A stretch of DNA of 64,000 nucleotides, taken from positions 8,200 through 72,199 of IMG/VR virus record IMGVR_UViG_3300047548_000621. The stretch is one strand, 5' to 3'. Shown here piece after piece: positions 2,992-14,777 of this stretch (the first letter of the stretch is position 1; each line of letters opens with the position of its first letter). The stretch is from a virus (lineage: Duplodnaviria; Heunggongvirae; Uroviricota; Caudoviricetes). A program made the translations under genes and the position numbers. The notes beneath the pieces were generated by a model that searched no databases, was not told the origin of the DNA, and saw only the letters and a program-made list of their open reading frames with translations.

Positions 2992-3067
2992 TGGTGGACC
3001 CTGTGGGGTTCGAACCCACGACCTACAGGTTAAAAGCCCGTTGCTCTACCTACTGAGCTAAAGGTCC
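2992..3067 (-). tRNA. tRNA-Lys (UUU)
   Basis: Minus-strand cloverleaf. Anticodon loop CUUUUAA, D-arm AGCUCAGUAGGUAGAGC, T-loop GGUUCGAAC, CCA encoded. Confidence 0.8.
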
Positions 3068-3073
3068 ATTATG

Positions 3074-3150
3074 TGGTGCGCCCGGGAGGATTCGAACCTC
3101 CGACCTTTCGATTATCAGTCGAATGCTCTAGCCAACTGAGCTACGAGCGC
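3074..3150 (-). tRNA. tRNA-Ile (GAU)
   Basis: Anticodon stem UUCGA/UCGAA with loop CUGAUAA. Canonical T-arm and CCA. Confidence 0.8.
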
Positions 3151-3156
3151 ATTAAT

Positions 3157-3234
3157 TGGAGCGACGGGTGTGATTCGAACACACGACTTTATTGCTTTGC
3201 AGGCAATTGCATTGGGCCTCTCTGCCACCGTCGC
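3157..3234 (-). tRNA. tRNA-Cys (GCA)
   Basis: Anticodon stem AUUGC/GCAAU with loop CUGCAAA, T-loop GUUCGAAUC, CCA. The D-arm is slightly long. Confidence 0.7.
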
Positions 3235-3282
3235 ATTAAACTTTATAGATTAGTTATATCAACATTCAGGACGAATGTCAAG

Positions 3283-4812
3283 TTATTTGTTAAGATATTT
3301 CCATAAATTTATGAAATAATTGTCTGCATATTCTGCTGATCTTCTTTTGATTTCTTCGCTTTCATCAACTTTTTTCAAAGAGGTCTTCATCATTTCGTAT
3401 GAATCGTAACCCAATCTTGTTAGACCTGCTGCCTGATATGGGTCTAGCTTTCGGCGGCCCGAATTATATATCTGACTATACTGGTTGCACATAAACTCAA
3501 ACGCTGCTTTCCTGTCCCAAATGTCATTTTTCCAATTGTGGTACAACCCAGATGAACCTAACAATTCATATCCGTATTTTTTTGGATTTTTTAAAATGCT
3601 ACTGTCATCATATTGTCCGGGACCAATTGATAAACACGAAAGGCTTAGCGCATCCATTGGAAAATCTTCATCAGATAACAATTCTATATTCTTCTCTGCT
3701 ATCTCTGGCGTTTCGCCCGGAAGTCCTATAATATATCCTGCGCTTATACCCAAAGCAGTGTCGCTTTCTTCATAGATATCTCTTAGCTTATACAATGTTT
3801 CTATATTTTTTTCAGGGGAGCCGCCCTTGCCTATAGCCTTAGCAGCAGGAGCGTGTAATGATTCTAACCCGAAAAAATAACCGTTAAAATTTAAATCCCT
3901 CAACATATACATCTGTTCAGGTTTAGCTGCTAATAAGTCTAATCTACAGCATCCCATAAATTTCAAATCAATTTTAGACTTGTCTCTAACATAAAGCATA
4001 CGCTCTATGTTATCTGTGCGGTGATTAAAAGTATCGTCAATTATGATGTAGCTAGTTGTTCCAAAATTTTCATAGTTATACAAAACTTCTTCTAGAATAC
4101 AATCTTCGTGTCTCATATACGAAAGGTCGTTTTTATTTTTACCTAAGAGTGGATAGGTACAAAAAGCACATTTAAAAATACACCCTCTCGATACTTCTAT
4201 AGGCAAAGACTCATTGTTTGTTACCCCATCATAGTGTTCCCATATGTGAGTGGAGTGCCTAAAATCAAACATATCACCTTTCATATCATATGATATGTCG
4301 TACATAAAAGTTTTAGGATCGTAATGCGGAGCTCCAACTGTCTTACTATAGATAGGATCTTTGTTTTTCTTGATGCATTCAACAATGTCTAAGATCATTC
4401 CTTCTCCCATACCTCGAACCACGTAATCTACATTAAAATTATGGTGCCGGCCGTGATCAAGCATAACATGGGTATTACCCCCACCGTAGATTATCTTTAT
4501 CTTTGGAAATTTAGTTTTTACGTATTCGTTAATAAGAGAAAATGTATCATCACCATCTTTAAAAGTAGAGACTATGCCCGGCCTACTATCATCCATAAAC
4601 AAAGTACTACTATACCCTAAAAATAAAGTATCAGTGGATATTACCCTATCTAATAAGCGCAACAATTCAGTAGTTGACAAATGGCTCATATGATCAATGA
4701 CCAAAGCCGAATATCCAGATTTGCGCAGTACGTCAGCTATTCTATAAGCACCGAAGGGTTTAAACCTTGTAGTCCAGGTCGCGTCTGATAATATCACTGC
4801 GTTGAATGTCAT
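3283..4812 (-). CDS. B12-binding-domain radical SAM enzyme (class B rSAM-like)
   Basis: 509 aa. N-terminal Rossmann-like cobalamin-binding region, then CIFKCAFCTYP (CxxxCxxC radical SAM motif). Paralog of the adjacent 493-aa ORF. Confidence 0.7.
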   Translation of the reverse strand: MTFNAVILSDATWTTRFKPFGAYRIADVLRKSGYSALVIDHMSHLSTTELLRLLDRVISTDTLFLGYSSTLFMDDSRPGIVSTFKDGDDTFSLINEYVKTKFPKIKIIYGGGNTHVMLDHGRHHNFNVDYVVRGMGEGMILDIVECIKKNKDPIYSKTVGAPHYDPKTFMYDISYDMKGDMFDFRHSTHIWEHYDGVTNNESLPIEVSRGCIFKCAFCTYPLLGKNKNDLSYMRHEDCILEEVLYNYENFGTTSYIIIDDTFNHRTDNIERMLYVRDKSKIDLKFMGCCRLDLLAAKPEQMYMLRDLNFNGYFFGLESLHAPAAKAIGKGGSPEKNIETLYKLRDIYEESDTALGISAGYIIGLPGETPEIAEKNIELLSDEDFPMDALSLSCLSIGPGQYDDSSILKNPKKYGYELLGSSGLYHNWKNDIWDRKAAFEFMCNQYSQIYNSGRRKLDPYQAAGLTRLGYDSYEMMKTSLKKVDESEEIKRRSAEYADNYFINLWKYLNK

Positions 4813-4820
4813 ATCAGTAT

Positions 4821-6302
4821 TTAACTATATAGTTTTTTGATTTTTGAAAAATATTCTTGCTCTATCTTTACTTTTAACTCAGGTATATTAGGCTTTATAG
4901 TTTCGTCAAATGTTTTGAGTGGCATATCAATCAGGTCATCAAATTTTAGACCAAATCTTAAATAGCCGGCTATCGAAAAAGACGGAATCTTCAATTTTCC
5001 AGAATCATACAGAAACAAGTTATAATGATTGGCAATCTCTGCACATTTATGATAGTCCCAAACATCGTTTTCCCAAAAAGGATCGTTTGTTAATCTATAC
5101 CCATATTTTTCAGGATTGGCGTATAAACTACTTTTACCAAATGCACTCTCACTCATCCATAATGGAGACAGTCCCACACAATCTACCGGAGAATCATCTT
5201 CTATTAGACGATTTATCCAGTAATCTACTGTTTCCGGCGTTTCATATGGTAGACCAACGATATACCCTAGCATTAAGTTAACTTTATTGTTGAATGCATT
5301 TTTGAGCTTATGCATTGTTTCAAACAATTCTTCGGCCGGAGCATACTTGCCTATAGCCTTAGCAGTCTTCTCATTTAGTGTTTCAACTCCAAAATAGTGT
5401 CCGTTGAAGTTAAGGTCCTTAAGTAAACTTATTTGCTCTGGCTTCTTTGCAAGCAAATCTAACCTGGTATATCCTACAAAATTTAAATCTAATTTTGTTC
5501 TGTCTCTTGCTCTTAGCAACAATTCTATTTTATCATTGCGTTCATTAAAAGTGTCATCTACGATCATATATGTAGTAGTATTGAACTTTTCATAATTATA
5601 CAAAAGTTCAGAGTACAGGGAATCTTCCAAACGTATATACGAGGTGTCTTGTTTGTGCATTCCTATTAAAGGAAAAGTACAAAATGTACATCGGAAAATA
5701 CAACCTCTTGCAACTTCAAGAGGTAGGCATTCACCCTCTATTATAAAATCTGAATCGTGCCAAAAATGTGTAGAATGCTTATAATCATACAGCTTGCCTC
5801 TGAGGTCATATGAAATAACATAAGCACCATTTACTTTATAATCATAGTAGGGTTCAGTATCATTTGCTAGTGAGTTTACTAAGTCCAACATCATAGATTC
5901 TGCGTAGCCTAATACAACATAATCAGTATACGTTTCTCGTATTTTTACGAGTTGTTCAAGAATTACATTACTATTGCTACCGCCCACTATAATTTTTATA
6001 TTAGGGTATCTATTCTTAATATGTTGATTAATTGCAACGAAATCATCGTCTCCGTTATCAAAGGGAACTTTATGATTTTTTTTACTATGAAACAGGGTGG
6101 TACTGTAACCCAAGAATAAAGTATCATCAGTAATAATGATATCTAATAAAGCAAAAAGCTGGTCTAATGGCAATCTGGATACATAGTCTAATACTTGTAT
6201 TTCATACCCTGCTTTTCGCAGTGTATCAGCAATCGTATATGCGCCTAGAGGTCTAATTCTTTCATCAAATACTGCATCAGTGAGTATAACGCCGTGGATC
6301 AT
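4821..6302 (-). CDS. B12-binding-domain radical SAM enzyme, tandem paralog
   Basis: 493 aa with CIFRCTFCTFP motif. Collinear similarity to 3283-4812, including LFLGYS(S/T)TLF, GYI(I/V)GLP(G/Y)ETPE and NP(K/E)KYGY. Confidence 0.7.
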   Translation of the reverse strand: MIHGVILTDAVFDERIRPLGAYTIADTLRKAGYEIQVLDYVSRLPLDQLFALLDIIITDDTLFLGYSTTLFHSKKNHKVPFDNGDDDFVAINQHIKNRYPNIKIIVGGSNSNVILEQLVKIRETYTDYVVLGYAESMMLDLVNSLANDTEPYYDYKVNGAYVISYDLRGKLYDYKHSTHFWHDSDFIIEGECLPLEVARGCIFRCTFCTFPLIGMHKQDTSYIRLEDSLYSELLYNYEKFNTTTYMIVDDTFNERNDKIELLLRARDRTKLDLNFVGYTRLDLLAKKPEQISLLKDLNFNGHYFGVETLNEKTAKAIGKYAPAEELFETMHKLKNAFNNKVNLMLGYIVGLPYETPETVDYWINRLIEDDSPVDCVGLSPLWMSESAFGKSSLYANPEKYGYRLTNDPFWENDVWDYHKCAEIANHYNLFLYDSGKLKIPSFSIAGYLRFGLKFDDLIDMPLKTFDETIKPNIPELKVKIEQEYFSKIKKLYS

Positions 6303-6315
6303 AATTTTATTTAAG

Positions 6316-6407
6316 TGGCGGAGAGTGAGGGATTCGAACCCTCGGAACCAGTTTCCCAGTTCGCCTTCTTAGCAGGAAGATGGTTTAAGCCACTCACCCA
6401 ACTCTCC
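6316..6407 (-). tRNA. tRNA-Ser (GCU), class II
   Basis: Long variable arm. Anticodon loop CUGCUAA, acceptor GGAGAGU/ACUCUCC, CCA. Confidence 0.75.
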
Positions 6408-6413
6408 GTAGTT

Positions 6414-6833
6414 CTATATATTTAAATGCTGTTTAGCATTTTCAACATAACTTTCAATTCTTTCTTTTCCAACATTGTTCTTAGAATGCACTATATATCT
6501 AGGAAACTTCTTTTGATTATTTACGCAATATTCAACTAACCATTTTGCGCAATCATATCCGGTTTTTTCCGGTCCATAATCAAAGGTCTTTATTAAATCA
6601 CCGTCGTTGTATGTATAAGAATCTGCCTGGGCATTCTCCTCTAACATAACTGCATAATGAAAGTCCGCTAAATCGTGGTCAAAACACACAAACTTCGGCA
6701 AACCAAAAAACTCAACGTGTCTGACAAAACCGTCAAAGCTACGAGCTATAAAAATAGAATCATAGCGAGGAAACTCGGCCCACGTTACTTGATCGGGCAT
6801 TCTTTCGTCATCAAGAAATAAAACGTAAGACAT
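6414..6833 (-). CDS. Hypothetical protein
   Basis: The ORF-track N-terminus (to 6923) overlaps tRNA-Ser(UGA). The internal Met MSYVLFLDD at 6831-6833 is taken as the start. Confidence 0.4.
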   Translation of the reverse strand: MSYVLFLDDERMPDQVTWAEFPRYDSIFIARSFDGFVRHVEFFGLPKFVCFDHDLADFHYAVMLEENAQADSYTYNDGDLIKTFDYGPEKTGYDCAKWLVEYCVNNQKKFPRYIVHSKNNVGKERIESYVENAKQHLNI

Positions 6834-6849
6834 TGTTAATCCTAATAGT

Positions 6850-6937
<88 letters not shown>

Positions 6938-6977
6938 ATATTCATATTTATGAGCGTATTACTACTGTAGTAAAAAG

Positions 6978-7052
6978 TGGTGCGCCCGGCAGGACTCGAA
7001 CCCGCAACCTAGCCCTTATGAGGGGCCAGCTCCACCATTGAGCTACAGGCGC
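6978..7052 (-). tRNA. tRNA-Met or Ile2 (CAU)
   Basis: Anticodon loop CUCAUAA, canonical T-arm GGUUCGAGUCC, CCA. Elongator, initiator and lysidine-Ile identities cannot be separated by eye. Confidence 0.7.
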
Positions 7053-7061
7053 ATTATTATT

Positions 7062-7148
7062 TGGTGGGAGTGGATGGATTCGAACCAACTCAGCCTTCCG
7101 ACAACAGATTTACAGTCTGCCCCAGCTCTCCAACTCTGGCGCACTCCC
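7062..7148 (-). tRNA. tRNA-Tyr (GUA), class II
   Basis: Anticodon loop CUGUAAA, long variable arm, acceptor GGGAGUG/CACUCCC, CCA. Confidence 0.7.
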
Positions 7149-7158
7149 AAATTAAACT

Positions 7159-7380
7159 TTACAAAAATTGATGGAGCCAACCATCAGCCAACTTCTGAAC
7201 TTCTTCGTCAGAAGCAAAATACTTATTCATATCGTTAATAGCGTCAAGTGTATCAAGGACATCATCTTCGTCCAACCCTTGATTACGCAAATGATTTAGA
7301 TAATCAGTAAGAGTTTCACAATCACACAGTTCTTGTTCAACATTCTTCTTACCAAACTCGACTTGAATAACTTGGCCCAT
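7159..7380 (-). CDS. Small acidic hypothetical protein
   Basis: 73-aa ORF. Confidence 0.3.
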   Translation of the reverse strand: MGQVIQVEFGKKNVEQELCDCETLTDYLNHLRNQGLDEDDVLDTLDAINDMNKYFASDEEVQKLADGWLHQFL

Positions 7381-7396
7381 AGTTGGCTCCTATGTG

Positions 7397-7627
7397 TTAC
7401 TTGGTTGCAGATTCCGTTGCAGCACCAGATGGAGTATCAGATGCAGTCTTTACGGTACCATCATCATTAAGCTGAACATCAGCAGATGAGGATGCAGCAG
7501 CGGCTTCATCAGCCGGTACATCAACAGTTTCAGTTCCCTTACTGCAAGCAGCAAGAGTAGCAAGGGCCGCAACAGCAGCAATAGTTACAATCTTCTTCAT
7601 ATTTTTTCCTCTTAATAAATGGTCCAT
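7397..7627 (-). CDS. Small lipoprotein
   Basis: Signal peptide with lipobox LAAC (MKKIVTIAAVAALATLAAC), followed by a low-complexity Ala/Ser/Thr-rich tail. Confidence 0.45.
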   Translation of the reverse strand: MDHLLRGKNMKKIVTIAAVAALATLAACSKGTETVDVPADEAAAASSSADVQLNDDGTVKTASDTPSGAATESATK

Positions 7628-7651
7628 TATTGAACCAAACTCTAAATTATT

Positions 7652-7727
7652 GGTGACCCCTACGGGATTCGAACCCGTGATCTTTCCCGTGAAAGGGGAA
7701 TGTCCTAAGCCGCTAGACGAAGGGGCC
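7652..7727 (-). tRNA. tRNA-Glu (UUC)
   Basis: Anticodon stem UUCCC/GGGAA with loop CUUUCAC, T-loop GGUUCGAAUCC, CCA. Confidence 0.8.
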
Positions 7728-7899
7728 GATAAACTTGTTACGCTATTGCTGCAATATAGCTTCGGGACTTCGAAACCCGAACCTGGTCCCTATTGTCGCC
7801 TTATGGGCTATCGTCGTTCTCCGTGCTAGCCTTACACCACATCTACTGTCACCGTTTGCAACCGTAAAATGCAGCAATATTAAAACTTTTTATTGATTT

Positions 7900-8180
7900 T
7901 GGTATGAGCGGCGGGACTCGAACCCGCACGTCCAAAGGACACAAGATTTTCTTACCACTATAGCTTTCGCTACCCATTAGTTTGTGGTCTGGACTATCCC
8001 TTCATCATATCATGACTGACTTAGATGCCTGCCGTCTAGTCTCTACACCTTCCCTTTCGGGCTTGGCTCGGGATCAGCATTTTACAGCCTTCCCCGAATT
8101 TGACAGGTTCTACTCTAGAGATTTCCCTCTAGGCACTCAAATTAATAAGTCTCGGGCGTCTACCATTCCGCCACGCTCAC
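7900..8180 (-). tRNA. tRNA-Leu (UAA) interrupted by a group I intron (exon 1 at 8147-8180, exon 2 at 7900-7950)
   Basis: The two exons join to an 85-nt class II tRNA. Acceptor GUGAGCG/CGCUCAU, D-arm UGGCGGAAUGGUAGACGC, anticodon stem CGAGA/UCUUG with loop CU-U|AAAA, variable arm, T-arm GCGGGUUCGAGUCCCGC, CCA. The split falls between U34 and A35. Confidence 0.75.
7951..8146 (-). ncRNA. Group I intron (tRNA-Leu UAA type, 196 nt, no ORF)
   Basis: Follows a U at the 5' splice site and ends with G before the 3' exon. Carries recognisable group I conserved elements: P-like AAAUUCGGGGAA, Q-like AUCCCGAGCC, R-like GUAGAGACUAGACGG, S-like AAGGGAUAGUCC. Confidence 0.65.
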
Positions 8181-8240
8181 ACATTAAAACTTAACCAACA
8201 ATGTCAAAGAATAGAGTGTGTTTCTCACTCTGTATATCTC

Positions 8241-8269
8241 TTTATACGATATAATAGGATAAATGTCAA
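8241..8269 (-). promoter_or_regulatory. Sigma70 / T4-early-like promoter (minus strand)
   Basis: Minus strand reads TTGACA, 17 nt, TATAAA. Confidence 0.4.
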
Positions 8270-8332
8270 GAAGTTTTTTCAAAAAAGCACACAATTTCAG
8301 AGAACCGAAAGAAATCAAACAAATTGGTATAA

Positions 8333-8409
<77 letters not shown>

Positions 8410-8413
8410 TATA

Positions 8414-8806
8414 TTAGAAGTGAACTACACCACTGTCAATGACAGGATGCTCATCGTCTGTGCGATCTACAATTGTGTAGGTGAATTTGGTTGTTCCAAA
8501 CTCACGGAGCATATCTGAAACACTGTCTAGTGTGAAATCTTTACAAGAGTAAAGATCAAACTTGAAAAAGGATGGCTCACCAGACCAAAAATGAATGCTA
8601 CTGTGACTAGTAGTAATGCCTACCATACCGGTAACACCTTCGTTACCTTCATCATCACAATATACGCAGATAGGATCAATCAATATTTTCATATCAACTG
8701 CTTCAACCAATCGGCGGAACCAATCATTTAGTTGGGGAACATACTCTGGGCCAGGAGCCTCTGCTAGGTATCCTGTAACCAGGACGTGCTTATTAACTTG
8801 AGCCAA
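8414..8806 (-). CDS. speD: S-adenosylmethionine decarboxylase proenzyme (pyruvoyl-dependent, SpeH/SpeD-like)
   Basis: 130 aa. The motif TTSHSSIHFWSGEP...FKFDLYSC matches the SES(H)xSIHTWPE self-cleavage region of bacterial and archaeal AdoMetDC. Confidence 0.6.
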   Translation of the reverse strand: MAQVNKHVLVTGYLAEAPGPEYVPQLNDWFRRLVEAVDMKILIDPICVYCDDEGNEGVTGMVGITTSHSSIHFWSGEPSFFKFDLYSCKDFTLDSVSDMLREFGTTKFTYTIVDRTDDEHPVIDSGVVHF

Positions 8807-8884
8807 CTCATAAAACCTTTCTCATCAATTTTACTGTCAGACAGCGAATAACTATTTATCATTATGTGTGTAGTTTTTAAGAAA

Positions 8885-8959
8885 TGGTAGCGCCGAGGAA
8901 TTCTGCCATCCTGACCTTTCGGGTGTAAACCGAATGCTCTACTTCTGAGCTACGGCGCC
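8885..8959 (-). tRNA. tRNA-Val (UAC)-like with non-canonical T-loop (GGCAGAA) and D-loop lacking GG; possible pseudogene
   Basis: Acceptor GGCGCCG/CGGCGCU, anticodon stem UUCGG/CCGAA with loop UUUACAC, CCA. The T-stem has a 53-61 mismatch and the T-loop has no TΨC. Confidence 0.45.
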
Positions 8960-8971
8960 ATTATTAAAATA

Positions 8972-9049
8972 TGGTCGGGGTAGCAGGATTCGAACCTGCG
9001 ACCTCCTGCTCCCAAAGCAGGCCGTCTAACCAGACTGACGTACACCCCG
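8972..9049 (-). tRNA. tRNA-Pro (UGG)
   Basis: Anticodon stem CCUGC/GCAGG with loop UUUGGGA, T-arm GCAGGUUCGAAUCCUGC, CCA. Confidence 0.8.
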
Positions 9050-9056
9050 ATATTCT

Positions 9057-9131
9057 TGGTGGAGACGGAGGGAATCGAACCCTCAAGTGCGCCTTGCAAA
9101 GGCGCCAGTTTCCCGTTAGCTTACGTCCCCG
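9057..9131 (-). tRNA. tRNA-Ala (UGC)
   Basis: Anticodon stem GCGCC/GGCGC with loop UUUGCAA, T-loop GGUUCGAUUCC, CCA. Confidence 0.7.
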
Positions 9132-9150
9132 TTGAACTATTTATATACTC

Positions 9151-9179
9151 ACTATAACATAGGCAAATTCCTATGTCAA
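9151..9179 (-). promoter_or_regulatory. Sigma70 / T4-early-like promoter (minus strand)
   Basis: Minus strand reads TTGACA, 17 nt, TATAGT. A TATATAAATA (late-promoter-like) sequence sits immediately downstream. Confidence 0.45.
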
Positions 9180-9188
9180 GAAAAAACT

Positions 9189-9266
9189 TGGTGCGCCCGG
9201 CAGGATTCGAACCTGCAACTTGAAGCTTAGAAGGCTCCTGCTCTATCCAGTTGAACTACGAGCGCG
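9189..9266 (-). tRNA. tRNA-Arg (UCU)
   Basis: Anticodon stem GGAGC/GCUUC with loop CUUCUAA, T-arm GCAGGUUCGAAUCCUGC, CCA. Confidence 0.75.
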
Positions 9267-9320
9267 TTATTCTTACTTATACGATAGATTGAAACGAGTG
9301 TCAACCTCTTTTTTCAAGAA

Positions 9321-9396
9321 TGGTGCTCTAGGAGAGAATCGAACTCCCTGTCTCCGGGTTACAAATCCGGCGCATCGCCAGCAATGCTTCTAGAGC
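9321..9396 (-). tRNA. tRNA-Thr (UGU)
   Basis: Acceptor GCUCUAG/CUAGAGC. Anticodon loop UUUGUAA with an A31-C39 mismatch. T-loop GUUCGAUUC, CCA. Confidence 0.65.
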
Positions 9397-9931
9397 GTAA
9401 TATTTTGTTTCTTTGCTTGTATATAGCAGCGTTAGAGACACCTAGCATATTTTCTAGTTCTCCGATTCTGTGCTTGTCAAGCAATGCAATCAAGTCAATA
9501 CTATCCCAATCTACCTTTCGGCTGTTACGCTGGGCACAAGTATGACTGCAAAACTGTTGTGCAACAGGCTTTTGGGCATCGCAGATTGGACAAGCATCAT
9601 ACTCTGACACTTTCTTGAAGTCAGCAAATGCTTCATTAAAACCTTCATACGTTTCCGGAAGTTCTAAGGCTCCTGCGTGAATCTCACTGTGGCAGTTGTG
9701 ACAAACCAAAATACACTTTCTAAGTTCAGTTACGACCTTAGACCATGATTTTGGATTCGCTCTAGTACCACCGAATCCAATGTCTTTTTGACTAGGATCA
9801 ATATGATGAAATGCCAGCGCAGCAGTATGCTTATCATACCCACAGCATTGACATTTCCCGCCCATTGCTTCTACCATCTTATTTTTGGTATTTTCTCTCC
9901 AGCGTTTTACTTTTTCTGATCCATAGCTCAT
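9359..9931 (-). CDS. HNH homing endonuclease
   Basis: 190 aa with HHIDP...CHNCH HNH/zinc motifs. The last ~12 codons overlap the 5' part of tRNA-Thr. Confidence 0.6.
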   Translation of the reverse strand: MSYGSEKVKRWRENTKNKMVEAMGGKCQCCGYDKHTAALAFHHIDPSQKDIGFGGTRANPKSWSKVVTELRKCILVCHNCHSEIHAGALELPETYEGFNEAFADFKKVSEYDACPICDAQKPVAQQFCSHTCAQRNSRKVDWDSIDLIALLDKHRIGELENMLGVSNAAIYKQRNKILRSRSIAGDAPDL

Positions 9932-9991
9932 AATATAACCTCTAACCTGTAATTCTATTTATCATAAAGTTGCAGGTTAGAGGTTTTAATT

Positions 9992-10067
9992 GGCTCCGAC
10001 ACCAGGACTCGAACCTGGAAAAACGCTGATTAACAGTCAGCTGGGTCTACCATTCCCCCATGTCGGA
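9992..10067 (-). tRNA. tRNA-Asn (GUU)
   Basis: Anticodon stem GCUGA/UCAGC with loop CUGUUAA, T-arm CCAGGUUCGAGUCCUGG, CCA. Confidence 0.8.
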
Positions 10068-10093
10068 ATGAACTCTATAAACTATTTAACTTG

Positions 10094-10122
10094 ACTATAG
10101 CAGCCTGACAAATAAATGTCAA
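10094..10122 (-). promoter_or_regulatory. Sigma70 / T4-early-like promoter (minus strand)
   Basis: Minus strand reads TTGACA, 17 nt, TATAGT, just upstream of tRNA-Asn. Confidence 0.45.
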
Positions 10123-10685
10123 GCTGCTATTTTCAAGATCCTACTGTGCTTGGGAACACCTGAAATCAAGTAATCCATCTGATCCGCAAGAATGTTGCGG
10201 TTCTGTAGAATCAAGCTTTCATAGTGGTTCGGCTCGTAGGGAATGTAACGCAATTCCATACCACTTTGCTTTAATGTCTTGCAACCCTTCTTTTGGTTAC
10301 AGTCAAAGCAAGATGTTACGACATTAGTCCATTCGTCCAAACCGCCCAAGAACCTCGGGACAATGTGGTCACGACTCAAATCATACTTACTTGCGAAATG
10401 ATTTCCACAGTAAGCACAGATATGTCTGTCACGAGCAAACAATGTAGGGTTCGTAAGAACTACTTTGTTGTGCTTTTTGAAATCGAAACCGTTACCCCTA
10501 ATAGCAATAATGCTAGGAGTTTCTAGATAGCTACGAGTACCATCGTTCTTGTAACCACCGTTGTATCTAGCAATTACATCACCTAGACTCCAAGCTACCA
10601 GATTTTTTGCGTGATACGAAATTGCTTCGTCGTGGGAGACCCACGTTCTGGGGACACCCGATATGTCTAAGGCTAGAACTGCCAT
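10119..10685 (-). CDS. HNH homing endonuclease
   Basis: 188 aa with the motif YCGN...DHIVP...CFDCNQKKG. Confidence 0.6.
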   Translation of the reverse strand: MAVLALDISGVPRTWVSHDEAISYHAKNLVAWSLGDVIARYNGGYKNDGTRSYLETPSIIAIRGNGFDFKKHNKVVLTNPTLFARDRHICAYCGNHFASKYDLSRDHIVPRFLGGLDEWTNVVTSCFDCNQKKGCKTLKQSGMELRYIPYEPNHYESLILQNRNILADQMDYLISGVPKHSRILKIAA

Positions 10686-10789
10686 AATAAACTCCTGTTA
10701 TTCTTTCTATATTTACTAATCTACAAAGTGACTTCCCTATTGTCTGTTCACTGTACATTTGTTTGACCGAATTGTCAACCAAAATCTTT

Positions 10790-10875
10790 TGGTGCACGGA
10801 AGAGGATTCGAACCTCTACACCATTTCTGATAGTACCCCCTCAAGATACCGCGTCTGCCGTTTCGCCACCCGTGC
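10790..10875 (-). tRNA. tRNA-Leu (GAG), class II
   Basis: Anticodon stem GUAUC/GGUAC with loop UUGAGGG. Long variable arm, T-arm AGAGGUUCGAAUCCUCU, CCA. Confidence 0.65.
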
Positions 10876-11521
10876 GTGAATCCCACTCTTGTATGTCTTT
10901 CATAAGCTCATCAATAGTACAGCTATTTTTCCAAGTCTTTTTGGCGTTAGCTGAATGTAAGACGAACTCGCAATTAGCAGGATGTGATATAATCTTAGGA
11001 TCAATATTGTTAGTAAATCCGTAATGCACTGATATACGATGATCACGGACTACCCCAGTAGGATTAATCTTTTTATGATACATACCGTGTTCTTGTAGAA
11101 GACAGTACCCTTTAACTTTTTCTATACAGGATGATAAGTGGAATGAGCAATCTTCCTTATACATCACCTTGCAAAGTGCTTGCTCATCAGTTATCTTTCT
11201 TTTACCTGTCATGTTCGTGGCCCAAGAACGGATGCTTTCATGAGTATCTTTAGTGAGACCTTTTGCCCAAGCCATCCTCTGTTTAGAATCTTCGGACAAT
11301 GTTGCATAGCGTTCCTTAGCACTTACTCGTTTACCGCTCTCATAAGCGTTCTTTGTGTTAGCACTATTTCTTGCTCTAACAGCAGGGCATTTGTTAGGAA
11401 CAATCTCGCACGAAAGTTTGCCACTTGAGGTAGAGTAGTGTGCAATATTGCCACACCCATAACTACATAACTCATCAGTGGTGATCTTTATTCCTGATTT
11501 AATAGGCATTTGTTTCTCCAT
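10841..11521 (-). CDS. Putative HNH-family or zinc-finger homing endonuclease
   Basis: 226 aa. Cys-rich N-terminus, C-terminal DHRISVHYGF...H motif. The 3' end overlaps tRNA-Leu(GAG). Confidence 0.4.
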   Translation of the reverse strand: MEKQMPIKSGIKITTDELCSYGCGNIAHYSTSSGKLSCEIVPNKCPAVRARNSANTKNAYESGKRVSAKERYATLSEDSKQRMAWAKGLTKDTHESIRSWATNMTGKRKITDEQALCKVMYKEDCSFHLSSCIEKVKGYCLLQEHGMYHKKINPTGVVRDHRISVHYGFTNNIDPKIISHPANCEFVLHSANAKKTWKNSCTIDELMKDIQEWDSRTGGETADAVS

Positions 11522-11569
11522 TGGTATACACGCAAGTATTTATCTTTTGCATACCAATCGGTATTAATT

Positions 11570-11660
11570 TGGTACTCCTGCTCGGATTCGAACCGAGACC
11601 GACCCCTAATCTGGGCTCCGGGATATAAATCCGGCCACTCTACCATTAAGCTACAGGAGT
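11570..11660 (-). tRNA. Class II-like tRNA, anticodon uncertain (best parse loop UUUAUAU with A31-C39 mismatch, possibly Ile-UAU)
   Basis: Perfect 7-bp acceptor ACUCCUG/CAGGAGU, T-arm CUCGGUUCGAAUCCGAG, CCA, and a variable arm of about 20 nt. The anticodon arm is irregular. Confidence 0.4.
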
Positions 11661-11673
11661 ATGAAACTTGCTT

Positions 11674-11747
11674 GGTGCCTCGTGAGGGATTTGAACCCCC
11701 GGCCTTTGCTTTACGAAAGCACTGCACTACCACTGTGCTAACGAGGC
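11674..11747 (-). tRNA. tRNA with uncertain anticodon (best parse CGU, Thr)
   Basis: Acceptor GCCUCGU/ACGAGGC, T-arm GGGGGUUCAAAUCCCUC, CCA. Anticodon stem GUGCU/AGCAA with a 27-43 mismatch and loop UUCGUAA. Confidence 0.4.
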
Positions 11748-12086
11748 TCAGAATGAGTTGTTATTTTTATGCCACTGACCATAAACACAATGTAAAAACT
11801 CGTGCCCTACATATTCCGGTTCATATCTAACTGATGGGTCAATCATATGAATTGTGCAAGTGTCAAACGGATATTTCAACACAGTAAATGCAGCAGTTTT
11901 GCCAGGGAGCTTTTTTTCAGCTACAACCTTACTAAACTCTTGTTCTGTTTTATAAGTTACGATGTTAACTTTCACCGTTTGTCGTTCATACTGTTTTTTA
12001 CCAAACGTATATCCGTCCTTACCTGGAGTAGGACCTTGATTACAACTTACCAATAATAGCAATAATGTTGCACATAATTTTTTCAT
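11748..12086 (-). CDS. Small lipoprotein with HExxH zinc-metallopeptidase motif
   Basis: Signal peptide plus lipobox (LLLLLVSC) and HEFLH near the C-terminus. Confidence 0.45.
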   Translation of the reverse strand: MKKLCATLLLLLVSCNQGPTPGKDGYTFGKKQYERQTVKVNIVTYKTEQEFSKVVAEKKLPGKTAAFTVLKYPFDTCTIHMIDPSVRYEPEYVGHEFLHCVYGQWHKNNNSF

Positions 12087-12294
12087 AGAGAATCTCCCTA
12101 TGATATTTAGTAAATTATAGTGGGCCCGTCACCACAACATAGACGGCATTATGCGGAATTTATCAGCGCCTCCGCTTGTGGATAGCTTGCTATCCTTTGG
12201 GTAAGTTATTGCAGATTACTTTCAGGTTAGCCTTCGCACCGTCTCCAATGTATGCCTACACGGGATTTCATCTTACTAACACCCACTATAAACT

Positions 12295-12378
12295 TGGTGC
12301 CCCGAGAGGGACTTGAACCCCCACGCCTTTCAGCAAAAGATTTTGAGTCTTCCGTGGCTACCATTACACCATCGGGGC
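12295..12378 (-). tRNA. tRNA-Leu (CAA), class II
   Basis: Anticodon stem GAAGA/UCUUU with loop CUCAAAA. Long variable arm, T-arm GGGGGUUCAAGUCCCUC, CCA. Confidence 0.7.
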
Positions 12379-12497
12379 AAGAAACTAGGCCCGGGATATT
12401 TATACTGCATACGGGCGGCGCAGTATCGGTTCAGCCTAGCGCATAGCTTATTGTGCCTTGAGAACACTCCGGTGCACCGCGTTTCTCTTCCGATATT

Positions 12498-12581
12498 TGG
12501 TGCGGGTAGAGGGACTTGAACCCCCACGCGATTAAGCAACAGATTCTAAGTCTGCCGTGGCTACCATTACACCATACCCGC
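12498..12581 (-). tRNA. tRNA-Leu (UAG), class II
   Basis: Anticodon stem GCAGA/UCUGU with loop CUUAGAA, long variable arm, CCA. Close paralog of the Leu(CAA) gene. Confidence 0.7.
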
Positions 12582-12732
12582 ATTTAAAATTATTTACTCG
12601 CCGTGACTCGTATCTCAAATAAAGTCACCGATAGTTCTTTCAACTACTGCTACGGCCTTCGGGTACACTCTCGCTCGGATTGAGCATAGAGCAAGGTCAC
12701 ATACGGCATACCGTACACACACGAGTAAAATT

Positions 12733-12808
12733 TGGTGCCGCCTCGAGGTTTCGATCCCCGTTCTTCGGTGCTTCAAACCGACGCTATCACCAGATCAGCT
12801 AAAGCGGC
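12733..12808 (-). tRNA. tRNA-Phe (GAA)
   Basis: Anticodon stem UCGGU/ACCGA with loop UUGAAGC, T-loop AUCGAAA, CCA. Confidence 0.65.
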
Positions 12809-13360
12809 ATTTAAGTCATTATATTGTTCTTTCTCTATAATGAGAATCTTCTTGTCAGGATGCTGTTCTATTACTGCATCCATCTTAGCTCTATCATTGC
12901 CCCACCATCTGCCCTTTATCTCAACATAAAGATCAAAAGCAGGAAGATAGAAATCAGGAGTGTAGTTCTTTGTTATTCCATCTAGAACATACTTCCAAGA
13001 CTTGCATCTTTCCCAAGCAATGTTATTATCGTTACAGTATAAAGCAAAAGTCCTTTCCCAGGTACCTTGCACTTTCTTACCGCTCACTTCAAACCATTTA
13101 CTCTTGCCACCTGGATTATGCTGTGACATTCGTTCGGACAATCGTTTACGAGCATCCTCGCCCATTACAGTAGGACCGTATTCAGCAATGCGAAGTTTTG
13201 TAGCTTCAGATTTAGTCCTAGTAATTAGGTCGCCGCGATTTTTGGCATTGACCAATGAGTTAAAAGCGAGTCCGTGCTTCTGTTGCAGGCCTCTAAAGCT
13301 CAACCCAGCGTCATAATCTTTCTGTATTTCAGCCCAATCGTAATGTTTCTTGTGTGGCAT
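12773..13360 (-). CDS. PD-(D/E)XK-family nuclease with N-terminal helix-turn-helix (putative homing endonuclease)
   Basis: 195 aa. The motif PDFYLP...DLYVEIKG fits PD...(D/E)xK. The 3' end overlaps tRNA-Phe and the start codon abuts a tRNA 5'-half remnant. Confidence 0.5.
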   Translation of the reverse strand: MPHKKHYDWAEIQKDYDAGLSFRGLQQKHGLAFNSLVNAKNRGDLITRTKSEATKLRIAEYGPTVMGEDARKRLSERMSQHNPGGKSKWFEVSGKKVQGTWERTFALYCNDNNIAWERCKSWKYVLDGITKNYTPDFYLPAFDLYVEIKGRWWGNDRAKMDAVIEQHPDKKILIIEKEQYNDLNAALADLVIASV

Positions 13361-13385
13361 TTGTGTTCTCCGTGATACTATTTAT

Positions 13386-13436
13386 CCCAGATACACAATC
13401 AACTGCTCTACCAACTGAGCTACAGAGGCAAAAACT
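13386..13436 (-). pseudogene. tRNA 5'-half remnant (acceptor plus D-arm only)
   Basis: GCCUCUGUAGCUCAGUUGGUAGAGCAG is a canonical acceptor and D-arm. No matching 3' half (CAGAGGC-N-CCA) is found nearby. Confidence 0.4.
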
Positions 13437-13588
13437 ATTGACTGGCTGCGTCACACCTACGCGATTTAACAGGATAGACTGTCCTGACCAATCTTTAGTT
13501 TAGTAAAATAACAATGTCAAAGAATAGAAAGCATCGCTCTCTATAGTCTTGTTATAGCAAACAATGATAGTGTTGTCAACTATTATTT

Positions 13589-13667
13589 TGGTCACGCCGA
13601 CGAGATTCGAACTCGCATTCTCCGACTTGAAAGGACGAACTCTTATGCCAATTAGAGGACGGCGTGA
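13589..13667 (-). tRNA. tRNA-Glu (UUC)-like, second copy, degenerate
   Basis: Acceptor CACGCCG/CGGCGUG, T-arm GCGAGUUCGAAUCUCGU, CCA. Anticodon loop CUUUCAA with one U-U mismatch in the stem. The D-loop is 12 nt. Confidence 0.4.
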
Positions 13668-13672
13668 TATCT

Positions 13673-13756
13673 TGGTGGGCCGGTGTGGACTTGAACCACG
13701 CCCCGAAGGATGAGTTTTACAGACTCACTGCTAAATCCAATTAGCTTTACCGTCCC
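13673..13756 (-). tRNA. tRNA-Tyr (GUA), class II, second copy
   Basis: Anticodon stem UGAGU/ACUCA with loop CUGUAAA, long variable arm, T-loop GGUUCAAGUCC, CCA. The acceptor has one A-G mismatch. Confidence 0.55.
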
Positions 13757-13763
13757 ATTAACT

Positions 13764-13948
13764 TGGTGAGGGCGACCAGATTCGAACTGGCAGAAGTCGT
13801 TACCAAAGCATTACCAGTGGCTGCCATCAGGTTCAAAGACTGCCGCGAGTCTACAAAAAATACCCCTAGGCACTTGCGAACAAACTCGGGTGTTACCCCA
13901 ATCGTTCCTTACTTTAACGATGCGTATACCTATTTCCGCTACGCCCTC
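13764..13948 (-). ncRNA. tRNA-like RNA with a ~105-nt insertion between the anticodon-stem halves
   Basis: 5' part has acceptor GAGGGCG, D-arm GCGGAAAUAGGUAUACGC and stem UCGUU. 3' part has AACGA, a 5-nt variable loop, T-arm GCCAGUUCGAAUCUGGU, acceptor CGCCCUC, A, CCA. The two parts are separated by about 105 nt that contains a second AACGA. Confidence 0.4.
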
Positions 13949-13957
13949 ATATAATCT

Positions 13958-14033
13958 TGGTGGAGCCTACGGGGATCAAACCCGTGACCTTTTGTCTGCC
14001 AGACAAATGCTCTCTCATCTGAGCTAAAGCCCC
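13958..14033 (-). tRNA. Atypical tRNA-like (Cys-GCA-like anticodon loop UGGCAGA, D-loop without GG, T-loop UUUGAUC)
   Basis: Acceptor GGGGCUU/AGGCUCC with CCA. Anticodon stem UUGUC/GACAA has G at position 33. D and T loops are non-canonical. Confidence 0.35.
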
Positions 14034-14041
14034 AATATCGG

Positions 14042-14124
14042 AGGAGTGTGATGGCATCGAACCATGTACCTTTCGGTACCTACTGATTTCGAATCAGTGC
14101 GGGGAGCCAACCCCAGCACACTCC
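14042..14124 (-). tRNA. tRNA-Ser (CGA), class II
   Basis: Acceptor GGAGUGU/ACACUCC, anticodon stem ACUGA/UCAGU with loop UUCGAAA, variable-arm hairpin GGUACCGAAAGGUAC. The 3' end reads UCC rather than CCA. Confidence 0.6.
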
Positions 14125-14198
14125 AATCTCGCGGGGGAGTTGCACTGTCCCCCTTCCCTCAATCTGCTATTGTGCAACGCAGTAATGAGGAGTATTTC

Positions 14199-14274
14199 TG
14201 GTCGGGAAGACAGGGATCGAACCTGCGACCTCGGCGTCCCGAACGCCGCGCTCTACCACCTGAGCTACTTCCCG
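14199..14274 (-). tRNA. tRNA-Pro (CGG)
   Basis: Anticodon stem CGGCG/CGCCG with loop UUCGGGA, T-arm GCAGGUUCGAUCCCUGU, CCA. Confidence 0.7.
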
Positions 14275-14410
14275 TTGTTATTCTTTAATCTATCAAAAGC
14301 ACGTTTCATCCGCGCTCTTGCTTCTTCTGCTTCTTTTCCTTTGAGGACTCTTACGCCCTCAAAAACACGGTTGCTCGTGTAGTTGCTAAAGTCAGGTAAA
14401 TCAGACTTCA
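14264..14410 (-). CDS. Small ORF (about 48 aa, MKSDLPDFSNYTSNRVFEGVRVLKGKEAEEARARMKRAFDRLKNNNGK)
   Basis: ATG preceded by AAAGGAAAUCAUU. The stop lies inside the tRNA-Pro(CGG) 5' end. The 124-aa ORF in the track looks like an over-extension across two tRNAs. Confidence 0.3.
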
Positions 14411-14427
14411 TAATGATTTCCTTTAAA

Positions 14428-14506
14428 TGGTCGGGATAGCAGGACTCGAACCTGCGACCTCTTGTCCCCCAGACAAGCGCGCTAAACCAGGCTGCGCCAT
14501 ACCCCG
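14428..14506 (-). tRNA. tRNA-Pro (GGG)
   Basis: Acceptor CGGGGUA/UAUCCCG, anticodon stem CUUGU/ACAAG with loop CUGGGGG, T-arm GCAGGUUCGAGUCCUGC, CCA. Confidence 0.7.
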
Positions 14507-14585
14507 TTGAATTGGCCGCCCCCTTTATTTTCCGTCCCCTTGCACTGAATAAACAGTAAAGCACAAGGTGAGAGGGCGATAAGAT

Positions 14586-14681
14586 TGGTGGACTGTGAAG
14601 GATTCGAACCTTCGAGTGGCCGTCGCCAATGAGTACCATACTTAATGGGAATCGAACCCAATCCTCTTCCAGGAACAGTCC
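14586..14681 (-). ncRNA. tRNA-like element of unknown fold (7-bp acceptor plus CCA, two T-arm-like hairpins)
   Basis: Ends GAAGGUUCGAAUCCUUC-ACAGUCC-A-CCA with a matching 5' GGACUGU 96 nt upstream. The interior holds a second UGGGUUCGAUUCCCA hairpin and no recognisable anticodon arm. Confidence 0.3.
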
Positions 14682-14687
14682 AATTAG

Positions 14688-14777
14688 TGGCGGAGTCGGT
14701 GAGATTCGAACTCACGGTACCCTTACGAGTACAACACCTTTCCAGGGTGTCACAATCGGCCACTCTGTCACGACTCC
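14688..14777 (-). tRNA. tRNA-Ser (GGA), class II
   Basis: Acceptor GGAGUCG/CGACUCC, anticodon stem ACACC/GGUGU with loop CUGGAAA, long variable arm, CCA. Confidence 0.7.

What the first reader, a model, noticed from the sequence alone, without database searches (positions are those of the whole stretch)
3283..6302. Tandem paralogous B12-binding radical-SAM enzymes embedded in the tRNA array
Two adjacent ~500-aa proteins each have an N-terminal cobalamin-binding-like Rossmann region and a CxxxCxxC cluster (CIFKCAFCTYP / CIFRCTFCTFP). They sit between tRNA-Cys and tRNA-Ser. Class B rSAM enzymes are typically C-methyltransferases for unactivated carbons. In a phage, candidate substrates are tRNA or rRNA nucleosides or DNA bases (hypermodification), either of which could give an uncharacterised nucleic-acid modification system. 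No partner genes (e.g. a cobalamin transporter) are obvious, but a TonB-dependent receptor of the class that imports B12 is encoded at 28964-31204.
Basis: partly seen in the sequence, partly recalled or inferred. Interest (0 to 1): 0.7.

Follow-up and report, generated by a model that had tools for sequence, protein, structure and literature searches.

The report
Paired B12-type radical SAM phage genes
Two neighbouring phage genes inside a tRNA gene array encode real B12-type radical SAM enzymes from a large, uncharacterised, mostly viral family, but relatives elsewhere sit in small-molecule tailoring operons, so a nucleic-acid-modifying role is possible, not favoured.

Summary
Two minus-strand ORFs, 4821-6302 (493 aa, rSAM-A) and 3283-4812 (509 aa, rSAM-B), are 44% identical. 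Both carry CxxxCxxC and lie between tRNA-Ser(GCU) and tRNA-Cys in a roughly 37-tRNA array of a tailed phage.

Profiles, a pLDDT-94 model and fold searches give a B12-binding-like Rossmann domain, a radical SAM barrel and a helical C-terminal domain. There is one Fe-S cluster only, which rules out MiaB/RimO. No curated family cutoff is reached.

The family is large: 1,175 clusters at 50% identity, with hundreds of viral contigs. It is absent from 50,697 GenBank phage records.

About 15% of members lie within 700 nt of a tRNA, against 4-6.5% for other genes in the same loci. The window's own subclade scores 8 of 8.

The same conserved signature also occurs elsewhere:
- in bacterial NRPS/carrier-protein clusters;
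- in marine phage operons with P450, Trp halogenase, an adenylating enzyme and methyltransferases.

The arrays are also mosaics of homing endonucleases and accessory genes.

Best reading (0.45): accessory class-B radical SAM tailoring enzymes, probably C-methylases, acting on a non-nucleic-acid substrate. tRNA/RNA modification remains a live rival (about 0.25).

The proposed B12 link to the TonB receptor is not supported.

The parts
4821..6302 (-). rSAM-A, 493 aa: N-terminal B12-binding-like Rossmann domain (about residues 1-150), radical SAM barrel with C201-x3-C205-x2-C208, helical C-terminal domain (about 417-492).
   Evidence: ORF. Pfam Radical_SAM 63.9 bits and B12-binding 31.3 bits. AF2 model with pLDDT 94.1. 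Fold matches to TsrM, MgmA, AprD4, CysS, RimO and MiaB.
3283..4812 (-). rSAM-B, 509 aa: paralog of rSAM-A (44% identity) with the same architecture and all family-invariant residues.
   Evidence: The start at 4812 is supported by alignment with rSAM-A from residue 4. JGI's 437-aa call is too short.
6316..6407 (-). tRNA-Ser(GCU), 13 nt upstream of the rSAM-A start codon. The spacer has no Shine-Dalgarno sequence.
3157..3234 (-). tRNA-Cys(GCA), the first tRNA downstream of rSAM-B. It is followed by tRNA-Ile and tRNA-Lys.
6414..6833 (-). cREC_REC (cyclic-phosphate-processing receiver-like) gene. It lies 16 nt after tRNA-Ser(UGA) and 6 nt before tRNA-Ser(GCU), and is apparently in the same transcript as the rSAM pair. 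It is not conserved next to other family members.
   Evidence: Pfam PF20274, 63.6 bits. JGI gene call. Sequence. No homolog in other family-bearing loci.
8411..8439 (-). Nearest upstream sigma-70-like promoter (TTGACA-17-TAATAT), just before tRNA-Trp. It is the likely start of the transcription unit that ends with rSAM-B. This is inferred.
3253..3281 (-). Sigma-70-like promoter (TTGACA-17-TATAAC) starting 1 nt after the rSAM-B stop codon and 18 nt before tRNA-Cys. It marks the end of the rSAM unit and the start of the next tRNA unit. This is inferred.
   Evidence: The motif occurs 15 times in the window against 6.4 expected, 12 of them co-oriented with the genes.
2992..17196 (-). Co-oriented tRNA array that provides the context: 34 tRNAs by ARAGORN, 2 more by Rfam, and an intron-containing tRNA-Leu. 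It is interleaved with the rSAM pair, cREC, AdoMet decarboxylase, a lipoprotein and several HNH or endonuclease-I-type genes.

Best explanation
rSAM-A and rSAM-B are two co-transcribed, probably both active, paralogs of a large uncharacterised family of class-B-type radical SAM enzymes that is enriched in viruses.

Shown: each has a Rossmann domain homologous to B12-binding domains, a radical SAM barrel with a single CxxxCxxC [4Fe-4S] site, and a family-specific helical C-terminal domain.

Inferred mechanism: the cluster reductively cleaves SAM to a 5'-deoxyadenosyl radical, which abstracts H from an unactivated carbon. A cobalamin held by the N-domain then most likely delivers a methyl group (C-methylation). 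A B12-independent rearrangement or dehydration, as in AprD4, is not excluded.

Inferred substrate: not a nucleic acid but a metabolite, lipid or carrier-bound or peptidyl molecule. That would make the pair accessory tailoring genes that alter host or phage chemistry during infection.

Inferred reason for the location: in this group of large phages, tRNAs, homing endonucleases and accessory genes are interleaved and transcribed together from repeated sigma-70-type promoters. The tRNAs are cut out of the transcript, leaving mRNAs with very short leaders.
For: Architecture and fold:
- establish the domain layout. Cobalamin radical SAM enzymes TsrM, MgmA, CysS, TokK and OxsB, plus AprD4, are among the best structural and profile matches.
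- 44 of 53 members hit PF02310.
- N-domain residues G107 and G108 are 100% conserved; R29, D127, G132, T61 and G65 are 93-99% conserved across 186 members.
- Only three Cys columns are conserved, so there is no auxiliary cluster.

Non-nucleic-acid context of relatives that keep the same signature residues:
- Vallitalea contig: two-module NRPS (C-A-T) + family rSAM + HemN/ChuW-like rSAM + adenylation enzyme + 86-aa ORF + two ABC exporters.
- Endobugula contig: family rSAM + HemN-like rSAM + TPP enzyme + A-PCP + a 1498-aa protein.
- Bdellovibrionales: FA desaturase, SDR, split transketolase and a QueC-like gene.
- Marine phage operon: P450, unknown, Trp halogenase, AMP-binding, family rSAM, unknown, methyltransferase, with overlapping genes.
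- 61 of 103 loci of at least 10 kb carry at least one such partner.

Arrays as mosaics:
- HNH and endonuclease-I-type genes, AdoMet decarboxylase and a lipoprotein lie in this array.
- Trp halogenase, a 2OG-Fe oxygenase, a PP-loop ATPase, peptidase S11 and FA desaturase lie in or beside arrays in relatives.
- No tRNA species is consistently adjacent.

Tight junctions and repeated promoters.
Against: - None of the usual partner genes is in the window, so the substrate has to be something the host already supplies.
- Family genes lie near tRNAs more often than their usual partners do: 15.2% against 4.0%, odds ratio 4.3, p 8e-5.
- A cobalamin-dependent radical SAM that methylates rRNA (RlmX) now exists as a precedent (PMC13602947).
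- Function may differ between subclades that share only 30-45% identity.
Confidence: 0.45

Rival explanations
1. The pair are RNA-modifying enzymes. They would C-methylate, or otherwise functionalise, a base or ribose carbon of the phage-encoded or host tRNAs (or rRNA). Possible purposes are tuning decoding or protecting tRNAs from host anticodon nucleases. They would be expressed from the same transcripts as their substrates.
For: - Family genes are enriched near tRNAs: 30 of 197 within 700 nt, against 6.5% of other ORFs and 4.0% of the usual partner genes. 21 of 216 lie within 100 nt, against 3.2%.
- The window subclade is 8 of 8, and at least 12 subclades have embedded members.
- Flanking tRNAs are co-oriented, with spacers of 0-50 nt.
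- Embedded members are usually stand-alone, so they need a ubiquitous substrate.
- A cREC_REC gene (predicted to process RNA 2',3'-cyclic phosphates; PMC7824862) lies immediately upstream.
- RimO and MiaB are among the top fold matches.
- RlmX is a precedent for a cobalamin radical SAM acting on RNA.
Against: - About 85% of family members are not near any tRNA.
- The same invariant residues, including C-terminal-domain residues, occur in NRPS and tailoring-operon members. Embedded members are scattered among non-embedded ones, which argues against a repeated change of substrate.
- No particular tRNA is adjacent.
- There is no TRAM, PUA, THUMP or other RNA-binding domain. The C-terminal domain is helical.
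- The proteins are acidic, pI 5.2 and 5.7.
- cREC is not conserved with the family.
- The family is absent from all cultured phages, including those with tRNA arrays.
- The sampling of loci is centred on the family, so the enrichment tests are biased.
Confidence: 0.25
2. They modify a protein or a ribosomally made peptide. Examples would be methylation of a side-chain carbon, as with Mmp10, MgmA or PoyC, on a phage or host protein.
For: MgmA is the best profile hit in the PDB and a top fold match. The RiPP C-methyltransferase model TIGR03975 gives weak hits of 40-45 bits. The commonest partner in viral loci is a twitch/SPASM-type radical SAM, NF033640, at 244-388 bits. Tandem duplication up to six copies resembles multi-site tailoring.
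Against: No precursor-like peptide or recognition-element gene lies next to the pair. All these hits are far below family cutoffs. The small recurrent ORFs in the viral islands look like membrane proteins, not precursors.
Confidence: 0.1
3. They hypermodify phage DNA bases.
For: Phages do hypermodify DNA. QueC-like PP-loop genes co-occur in 32 of 164 loci.
Against: No DpdA/TGT-type transglycosylase, nucleotide kinase, glycosylase or other DNA-modification module lies next to the pair or recurs among the neighbours. The homologs in bacterial NRPS clusters do not fit this reading.
Confidence: 0.03
4. The B12-like domain is vestigial, and the enzymes carry out cobalamin-independent radical chemistry (dehydration or rearrangement, as in AprD4) rather than methylation. 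This concerns the chemistry, not the substrate, and could combine with any of the substrate hypotheses above.
Against: The N-domain is strongly conserved, including the GG motif typical of B12-binding domains (100% of 186 sequences). 44 of 53 members match PF02310.
Confidence: 0.15

Closest known systems
Class B (cobalamin-dependent) radical SAM enzymes with solved structures: TsrM (6wte), MgmA (9ccb), CysS (9n1b), TokK (7kdx), OxsB (5ul3)
   Different: Sequence identity is only 13-18%. No curated family cutoff is approached. The helical C-terminal domain and the signature residues (DDTFN, R280, K319, NPEKYGY...W410, Y484) are specific to this family. Cobalamin binding has not been shown.
AprD4 (6fd2), a B12-independent radical SAM diol dehydratase with a B12-like N-domain
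   Different: About 14% identity. The family keeps conserved GG and other N-domain residues, which suggests a working cofactor site.
MiaB/RimO/MtaB methylthiotransferases
   Different: There is no N-terminal three-cysteine auxiliary cluster; only three Cys columns are conserved. There is no TRAM domain. NCBIfam scores are 10-19 bits against cutoffs of 251-357.
NCBIfam TIGR04072 (lipid biosynthesis B12-binding/radical SAM), TIGR04479 (PhpK P-methyltransferase), TIGR04385 (BzaD), TIGR04367 (HpnR)
   Same: These are the best-scoring curated models: 81, 66, 56 and 48 bits for rSAM-A. All are class-B enzymes that act on lipids or small molecules.
   Different: Scores are 4 to 13 times below the curated cutoffs (360-650 bits), so the proteins are not members.
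RlmX, a cobalamin-dependent radical SAM methylating ribose C5' of D2449 and Cm2498 in E. coli 23S rRNA (as described in PMC13602947)
   Same: It shows that a cobalamin radical SAM can act on RNA.
   Different: I could not determine the sequence identity of RlmX. E. coli YgiQ, whose name JGI uses to label this family, matches only the radical SAM core (hhalign probability 46%; TIGR03904 at 10.6 bits).

Membership tests
Radical SAM superfamily | CxxxCxxC motif binding a [4Fe-4S] cluster within a partial or full TIM barrel. | tested here: met
   C201/C205/C208 are invariant in 186 sequences. Pfam PF04055 gives 63.9 and 51.5 bits against a cutoff of 29.5. The barrel appears in the pLDDT-94 model.
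Class B (cobalamin-dependent) radical SAM | N-terminal domain homologous to B12-binding (Rossmann) domains. | tested here: met
   PF02310 gives 31.3 bits (rSAM-A) and 18.5 bits (rSAM-B) against a gathering score of 32.1, so both fall individually below it. At family level, 44 of 53 members match at E <= 0.01, best 9e-9. The GG motif is 100% conserved. The fold matches TsrM, MgmA, CysS and TokK.
Class B (cobalamin-dependent) radical SAM | Actually binds cobalamin and depends on it for catalysis. | not testable with these tools
   AprD4 shows that this architecture can work without B12. The window has no riboswitch and no B12 genes.
Class B radical SAM methylases | Transfers a methyl group to an unactivated C (or P) atom. 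| not testable with these tools
   Inferred only, from the nearest structural and profile relatives.
Named class-B equivalogs (PhpK, ladderane-lipid rSAM TIGR04072, BzaD, HpnR, HpnJ, BchE, RiPP C-MT TIGR03975, MgmA TIGR04014) | Score at or above the curated NCBIfam cutoff. | tested here: not met
   The best hit is 81 bits against 360. All the others score 24-66 bits against cutoffs of 282-650.
MiaB/RimO methylthiotransferases | Second [4Fe-4S] cluster on three N-terminal cysteines, and a C-terminal TRAM domain. | tested here: not met
   Only the three radical SAM cysteines are conserved. There is no TRAM hit. The C-terminal region is helical.
YgiQ / UPF0313 (the source of the JGI label) | Full-length similarity to YgiQ (TIGR03904, with Radical_SAM_N and a C-terminal DUF). 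| tested here: not met
   TIGR03904 gives 10.6 bits against 462. hhalign probability is 46% and covers the core only.
tRNA/rRNA-modifying radical SAM enzymes (functional class) | A recognisable RNA-binding module, or conserved linkage to a particular RNA. | tested here: inconclusive
   No RNA-binding domain is found. Proximity to tRNAs is enriched 2.6-4.3 fold, but no specific tRNA is involved and about 85% of members are not near tRNAs.

The most novel reading that the evidence does not exclude
The stand-alone, array-embedded members, including this pair, are phage-encoded cobalamin-type radical SAM enzymes that install a so-far-unknown carbon modification on tRNAs (phage or host). They would be made from the same transcripts as their substrates. 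One possible purpose is to evade host tRNA-targeting defences. The two paralogs would then have different sites or different tRNA sets.
Probability: 0.2. Interest if true: 0.85.

Novelty: new member of a known kind. Interest (0 to 1): 0.45.

Why it matters
If the favoured reading is right, large aquatic phages carry a widespread, entirely uncharacterised branch of B12-type radical SAM chemistry: over 1,000 clusters at 50% identity and hundreds of viral contigs. Sometimes it stands alone and sometimes it sits inside compact operons with a halogenase, a P450 and an adenylating enzyme. That would mean phages make or remodel specialised metabolites or lipids during infection.

If the minority reading is right, this would be the first phage-encoded class-B radical SAM enzyme acting on tRNA, and a new layer in the contest between phage tRNA arrays and host tRNA-targeting defences.

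Either way the family is a well-defined target for biochemistry. A high-confidence model exists, the invariant residues are mapped, and there are many natural variants.

Tried and rejected
1. Looked for annotated relatives in GenBank phages. tblastn found none, and the DNA search hit only a tRNA-Ser.
2. PHROGs gave no family. A PDB search with the single sequence gave nothing.
3. Tested for a MiaB/RimO-type methylthiotransferase. Rejected: no auxiliary cysteines and no TRAM domain.
4. Tested for a YgiQ-type enzyme, which is the JGI label. Rejected. I could not establish which E. coli gene is RlmX, because the primary paper is not in the library. MG1655 still annotates ygiQ generically.
5. Tested the B12 link through the TonB receptor or a riboswitch. 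The receptor is not BtuB-like, and there is no cobalamin riboswitch.
6. Asked whether one tRNA species always neighbours the gene. It does not.
7. Asked whether cREC, AdoMet decarboxylase or the Zeta/AAA_33 kinase are conserved partners. cREC and the kinase have no homolog in any other family-bearing locus. AdoMet_dc recurs only twice: a Pfam-level neighbour in L002 and a BLAST homolog in L142.
8. Looked for phosphonate-pathway neighbours, prompted by the PhpK hits. No PEP mutase appeared among the recurrent neighbours.
9. Checked whether the small recurrent 70-110-aa ORFs in marine islands are carrier proteins or precursor peptides. They look like small membrane proteins.
BFVD gave only unnamed 'COG1032' phage proteins.
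11. pI was computed as a crude proxy for RNA binding. The proteins are acidic, which is not decisive.
Full report
**Observation.** The window carries two adjacent minus-strand ORFs at exactly the coordinates reported.
- rSAM-A is at 4821-6302 (493 aa) and rSAM-B is at 3283-4812 (509 aa).
- They are 44% identical over 484 residues, E 7e-145.
- They contain RGCIFRCTFCTFP and RGCIFKCAFCTYP respectively.
- They lie between tRNA-Ser(GCU) at 6316-6407 and tRNA-Cys(GCA) at 3157-3234.
- These tRNAs belong to a co-oriented array at 2992-17196. ARAGORN finds 34 tRNAs there, Rfam adds two more, and there is an intron-containing tRNA-Leu.
- The window belongs to a tailed phage. It has tail-fibre PHROGs and class Ia RNR subunits, closest to the RNRs of Xanthomonas, Stenotrophomonas and Ralstonia myophages at 53-59% identity, and several HNH genes.
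- The source is a 120-kb JGI metagenome contig.

**What the proteins are.**
- Pfam Radical_SAM is clear in both, at 63.9 and 51.5 bits. B12-binding scores 31.3 and 18.5 bits against a gathering score of 32.1.
- At family level the N-domain homology is solid. 44 of 53 aligned relatives hit PF02310.
- The GG motif is invariant in 186 non-redundant members. R29, T61, G65, D127 and G132 are 93-99% conserved.
- AlphaFold2 with the family alignment gives a pLDDT-94 model. It shows a Rossmann domain, a radical SAM barrel and a helical C-terminal domain.
- Only three cysteine columns are conserved and there is no TRAM domain, so these are not MiaB/RimO enzymes.
- Every NCBIfam hit is a class-B family (ladderane-lipid rSAM, PhpK, BzaD, HpnR, BchE and others), but each scores 4 to 13 times below its cutoff.
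- E. coli YgiQ, whose name JGI attaches to these proteins, matches only the core.
- In short, the class-B architecture is confirmed, membership of any characterised family is rejected, and cobalamin use is inferred.

**Distribution.**
- No homolog exists in 50,697 GenBank phage records, and no PHROG matches.
- The family is nonetheless large in uncultured material.
  - The word-indexed search gave 190 hits.
  - IMG/VR holds at least 532 relatives, and JGI metagenome contigs hold at least 574.
  - An exhaustive HMM search found 1,175 cluster representatives (50% identity) at E <= 1e-30.
- Cellular genomes give only 27 loci, mostly small MAG contigs.
- BFVD relatives are unnamed 'COG1032' proteins of uncultured Caudovirales.
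- Tandem or multiple copies recur. They appear in 10 of 85 loci, and one Gammaproteobacteria MAG contig has six copies.

**The tRNA association.**
- The pattern is real in the window's own subclade. All 8 members are within 700 nt of a tRNA.
  - These include a T4-like phage (L002) and an unrelated large phage (L004/L005), at only 41-44% identity.
- Of four further close relatives picked only for contig length, one has a tRNA 12 nt downstream. One has a tRNA 617 nt upstream. One sits inside a loose 16-tRNA array. One has no tRNAs.
- Across the family, 30 of 197 non-redundant genes are within 700 nt of a tRNA.
  - This compares with 6.5% of other ORFs in the same loci (odds ratio 2.6) and 4.0% of the family's usual partner genes (odds ratio 4.3). 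Both give p of about 8e-5.
- Embedded members occur in at least 12 subclades. They are co-oriented with the tRNAs, with spacers of 0-50 nt, and no particular tRNA species is preferred.
- These tests are biased, because every locus was chosen for containing the family.

**Evidence pointing away from nucleic acids.**
- About 85% of members are not near tRNAs.
- Members with the same invariant residues, including those in the C-terminal domain (S391, G401, Y402, W410, Y484), sit in clearly small-molecule contexts.
  - A Vallitalea contig carries a two-module NRPS, the family rSAM and a HemN/ChuW-like rSAM. It also has an adenylation enzyme, a small 86-aa ORF and two ABC exporters.
  - An Endobugula contig has a similar set, with a TPP enzyme and an A-PCP protein.
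  - A Bdellovibrionales locus has an FA desaturase, an SDR, a split transketolase and a QueC-like gene.
- In marine viral contigs the gene lies in a tight overlapping operon. The order is P450, unknown, Trp halogenase, AMP-binding, family rSAM, unknown, methyltransferase.
- A twitch-domain radical SAM (NF033640) is a frequent neighbour there.
- 61 of 103 loci of at least 10 kb carry at least one such partner.
- The tRNA arrays of these phages are mosaics.
  - This array holds three or four homing-endonuclease-type genes, AdoMet decarboxylase, a lipoprotein and cREC.
  - Arrays in relatives hold Trp halogenase, a 2OG-Fe oxygenase, a PP-loop ATPase, peptidase S11 and other genes.
- A pelagimyophage study likewise reports 'radical SAM cassettes' in hypervariable regions, without assigning a function (PMC7029224).

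**Local anatomy.**
- The junctions are very tight.
  - tRNA-Ser(UGA), then 16 nt, then cREC.
  - cREC, then 6 nt, then tRNA-Ser(GCU).
  - tRNA-Ser(GCU), then 13 nt, then rSAM-A.
  - rSAM-A, then 8 nt, then rSAM-B.
  - rSAM-B, then 1 nt, then a TTGACA-17-TATAAC promoter that precedes tRNA-Cys.
- No Shine-Dalgarno sequence precedes either rSAM gene.
- The promoter motif occurs 15 times in the window against 6.4 expected. Twelve copies are co-oriented, and several sit directly before tRNAs.
- The nearest copy upstream of the pair is at 8439-8411.
- I infer a single transcript running from tRNA-Trp to rSAM-B, with the tRNAs excised.

**The B12 supply claim.**
- The TonB-dependent receptor is real, at 28964-31297 with Plug and barrel domains.
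- Its best subfamily matches are heme/hemoglobin and siderophore receptors. BtuB models score 31-37 bits. All of these are far below cutoff.
- Rfam finds no cobalamin riboswitch in the window.
- The link to B12 is therefore unsupported. A phage-borne TonB receptor is itself rare, with homologs in only 6 of 50,697 phage records.

**Verdict.**
The class-B assignment is supported. The nucleic-acid-modification interpretation is a minority possibility.
- My best explanation (0.45) is a pair of accessory class-B radical SAM tailoring enzymes, probably C-methylases. They would act on a metabolite, lipid or carrier-bound substrate supplied by the host. They would sit in the array because that region is a co-transcribed mosaic of tRNAs and accessory genes.
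- The main rival (0.25) is tRNA or rRNA modification. It is kept alive by the 3-4 fold enrichment near tRNAs, by the stand-alone nature of the embedded copies, and by the recent RlmX precedent (PMC13602947).
- Protein or peptide modification (0.1) and DNA modification (0.03) are less likely.
- Whether cobalamin is really used is a separate open question.
- In kind, this is a new and uncharacterised member family of a known enzyme class.

Noticed in passing
window 7900-8180 (-), intron core 7970-8157: tRNA-Leu(UAA) interrupted in the anticodon loop by a 196-nt group I intron (Rfam RF00028, 65.7 bits; ARAGORN intron mode). This is the classic cyanobacterial/plastid arrangement, here found inside a phage tRNA array.
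   Followed up: partly
window 28964-31297 (-): Phage-encoded TonB-dependent receptor (Plug plus beta-barrel, 777 aa). Its nearest models are heme/hemoglobin and siderophore-type receptors, not BtuB. Only 6 of 50,697 GenBank phage records hold a homolog.
   Followed up: partly
window 27276-27350 (-): An isolated tRNA with a CUA anticodon (amber-suppressor type, which ARAGORN calls 'Pyl'), lying about 10 kb outside the main array.
   Followed up: no
window 21885-25180, 23338-23934, 6414-6833 (-): An NAD salvage and ADP-ribose set: NAMPT, NadM-like cytidylyltransferase-Nudix, a weak Macro hit and cREC_REC. ADP-ribosylglycohydrolase and HAD_SAK_2 lie just beyond the window start on the source contig. 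The set resembles the phage NAD/ADPr conflict systems described in PMC7824862.
   Followed up: no
window 9359-9931, 10119-10685, 12773-13360, 16332-16928 (-): The tRNA array is studded with HNH-type and endonuclease-I-type (homing endonuclease-like) genes. In the sampled loci, homologs of these HNH genes are near tRNAs in 8 of 9 cases.
   Followed up: partly
window minus strand, for example 3253-3281, 8411-8439, 9151-9179, 10094-10122, 17086-17114: Repeated near-consensus sigma-70 promoters (TTGACA-17-TATAAC/TATAGT/TATAAT), many directly upstream of tRNAs. The rSAM genes have AT-rich leaders of 8-13 nt and no Shine-Dalgarno sequence.
   Followed up: partly
L034 about 6320-13891 (IMG/VR); similar in L012, L013, L014, L033, L040, L067: Marine viral contigs carry a compact operon with overlapping genes: P450, unknown, Trp halogenase, AMP-binding enzyme, family rSAM, unknown, methyltransferase. 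Twitch-domain radical SAMs lie nearby. It looks like a phage-borne biosynthetic gene cluster.
   Followed up: partly
L172 4759-16649 (Gammaproteobacteria MAG contig QZLE01000063.1): Six paralogs of the family in a row, interleaved with unknown proteins of about 200 aa that have no Pfam or NCBIfam hit.
   Followed up: no
L002 13311-13808; also L099, L146, L149, L163, L196: A small RNase H-like protein (PF04308, about 160 aa) lies within 700 nt of a tRNA in all 6 loci where it occurs. It is a more consistent array-associated gene than the rSAM family.
   Followed up: no
window 8414-8806 (-); L002 8451-8813: An AdoMet decarboxylase (PF02675) gene lies in or beside the array in the window and in the T4-like relative L002. 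It consumes the same cofactor (SAM) as the rSAM pair, but it is not generally linked to the family.
   Followed up: partly
window 3283-4812 (-): The public JGI gene call for rSAM-B is 437 aa. It starts at an internal Met and removes much of the N-terminal B12-like domain, which may explain why no B12-binding domain is on record for it.
   Followed up: yes
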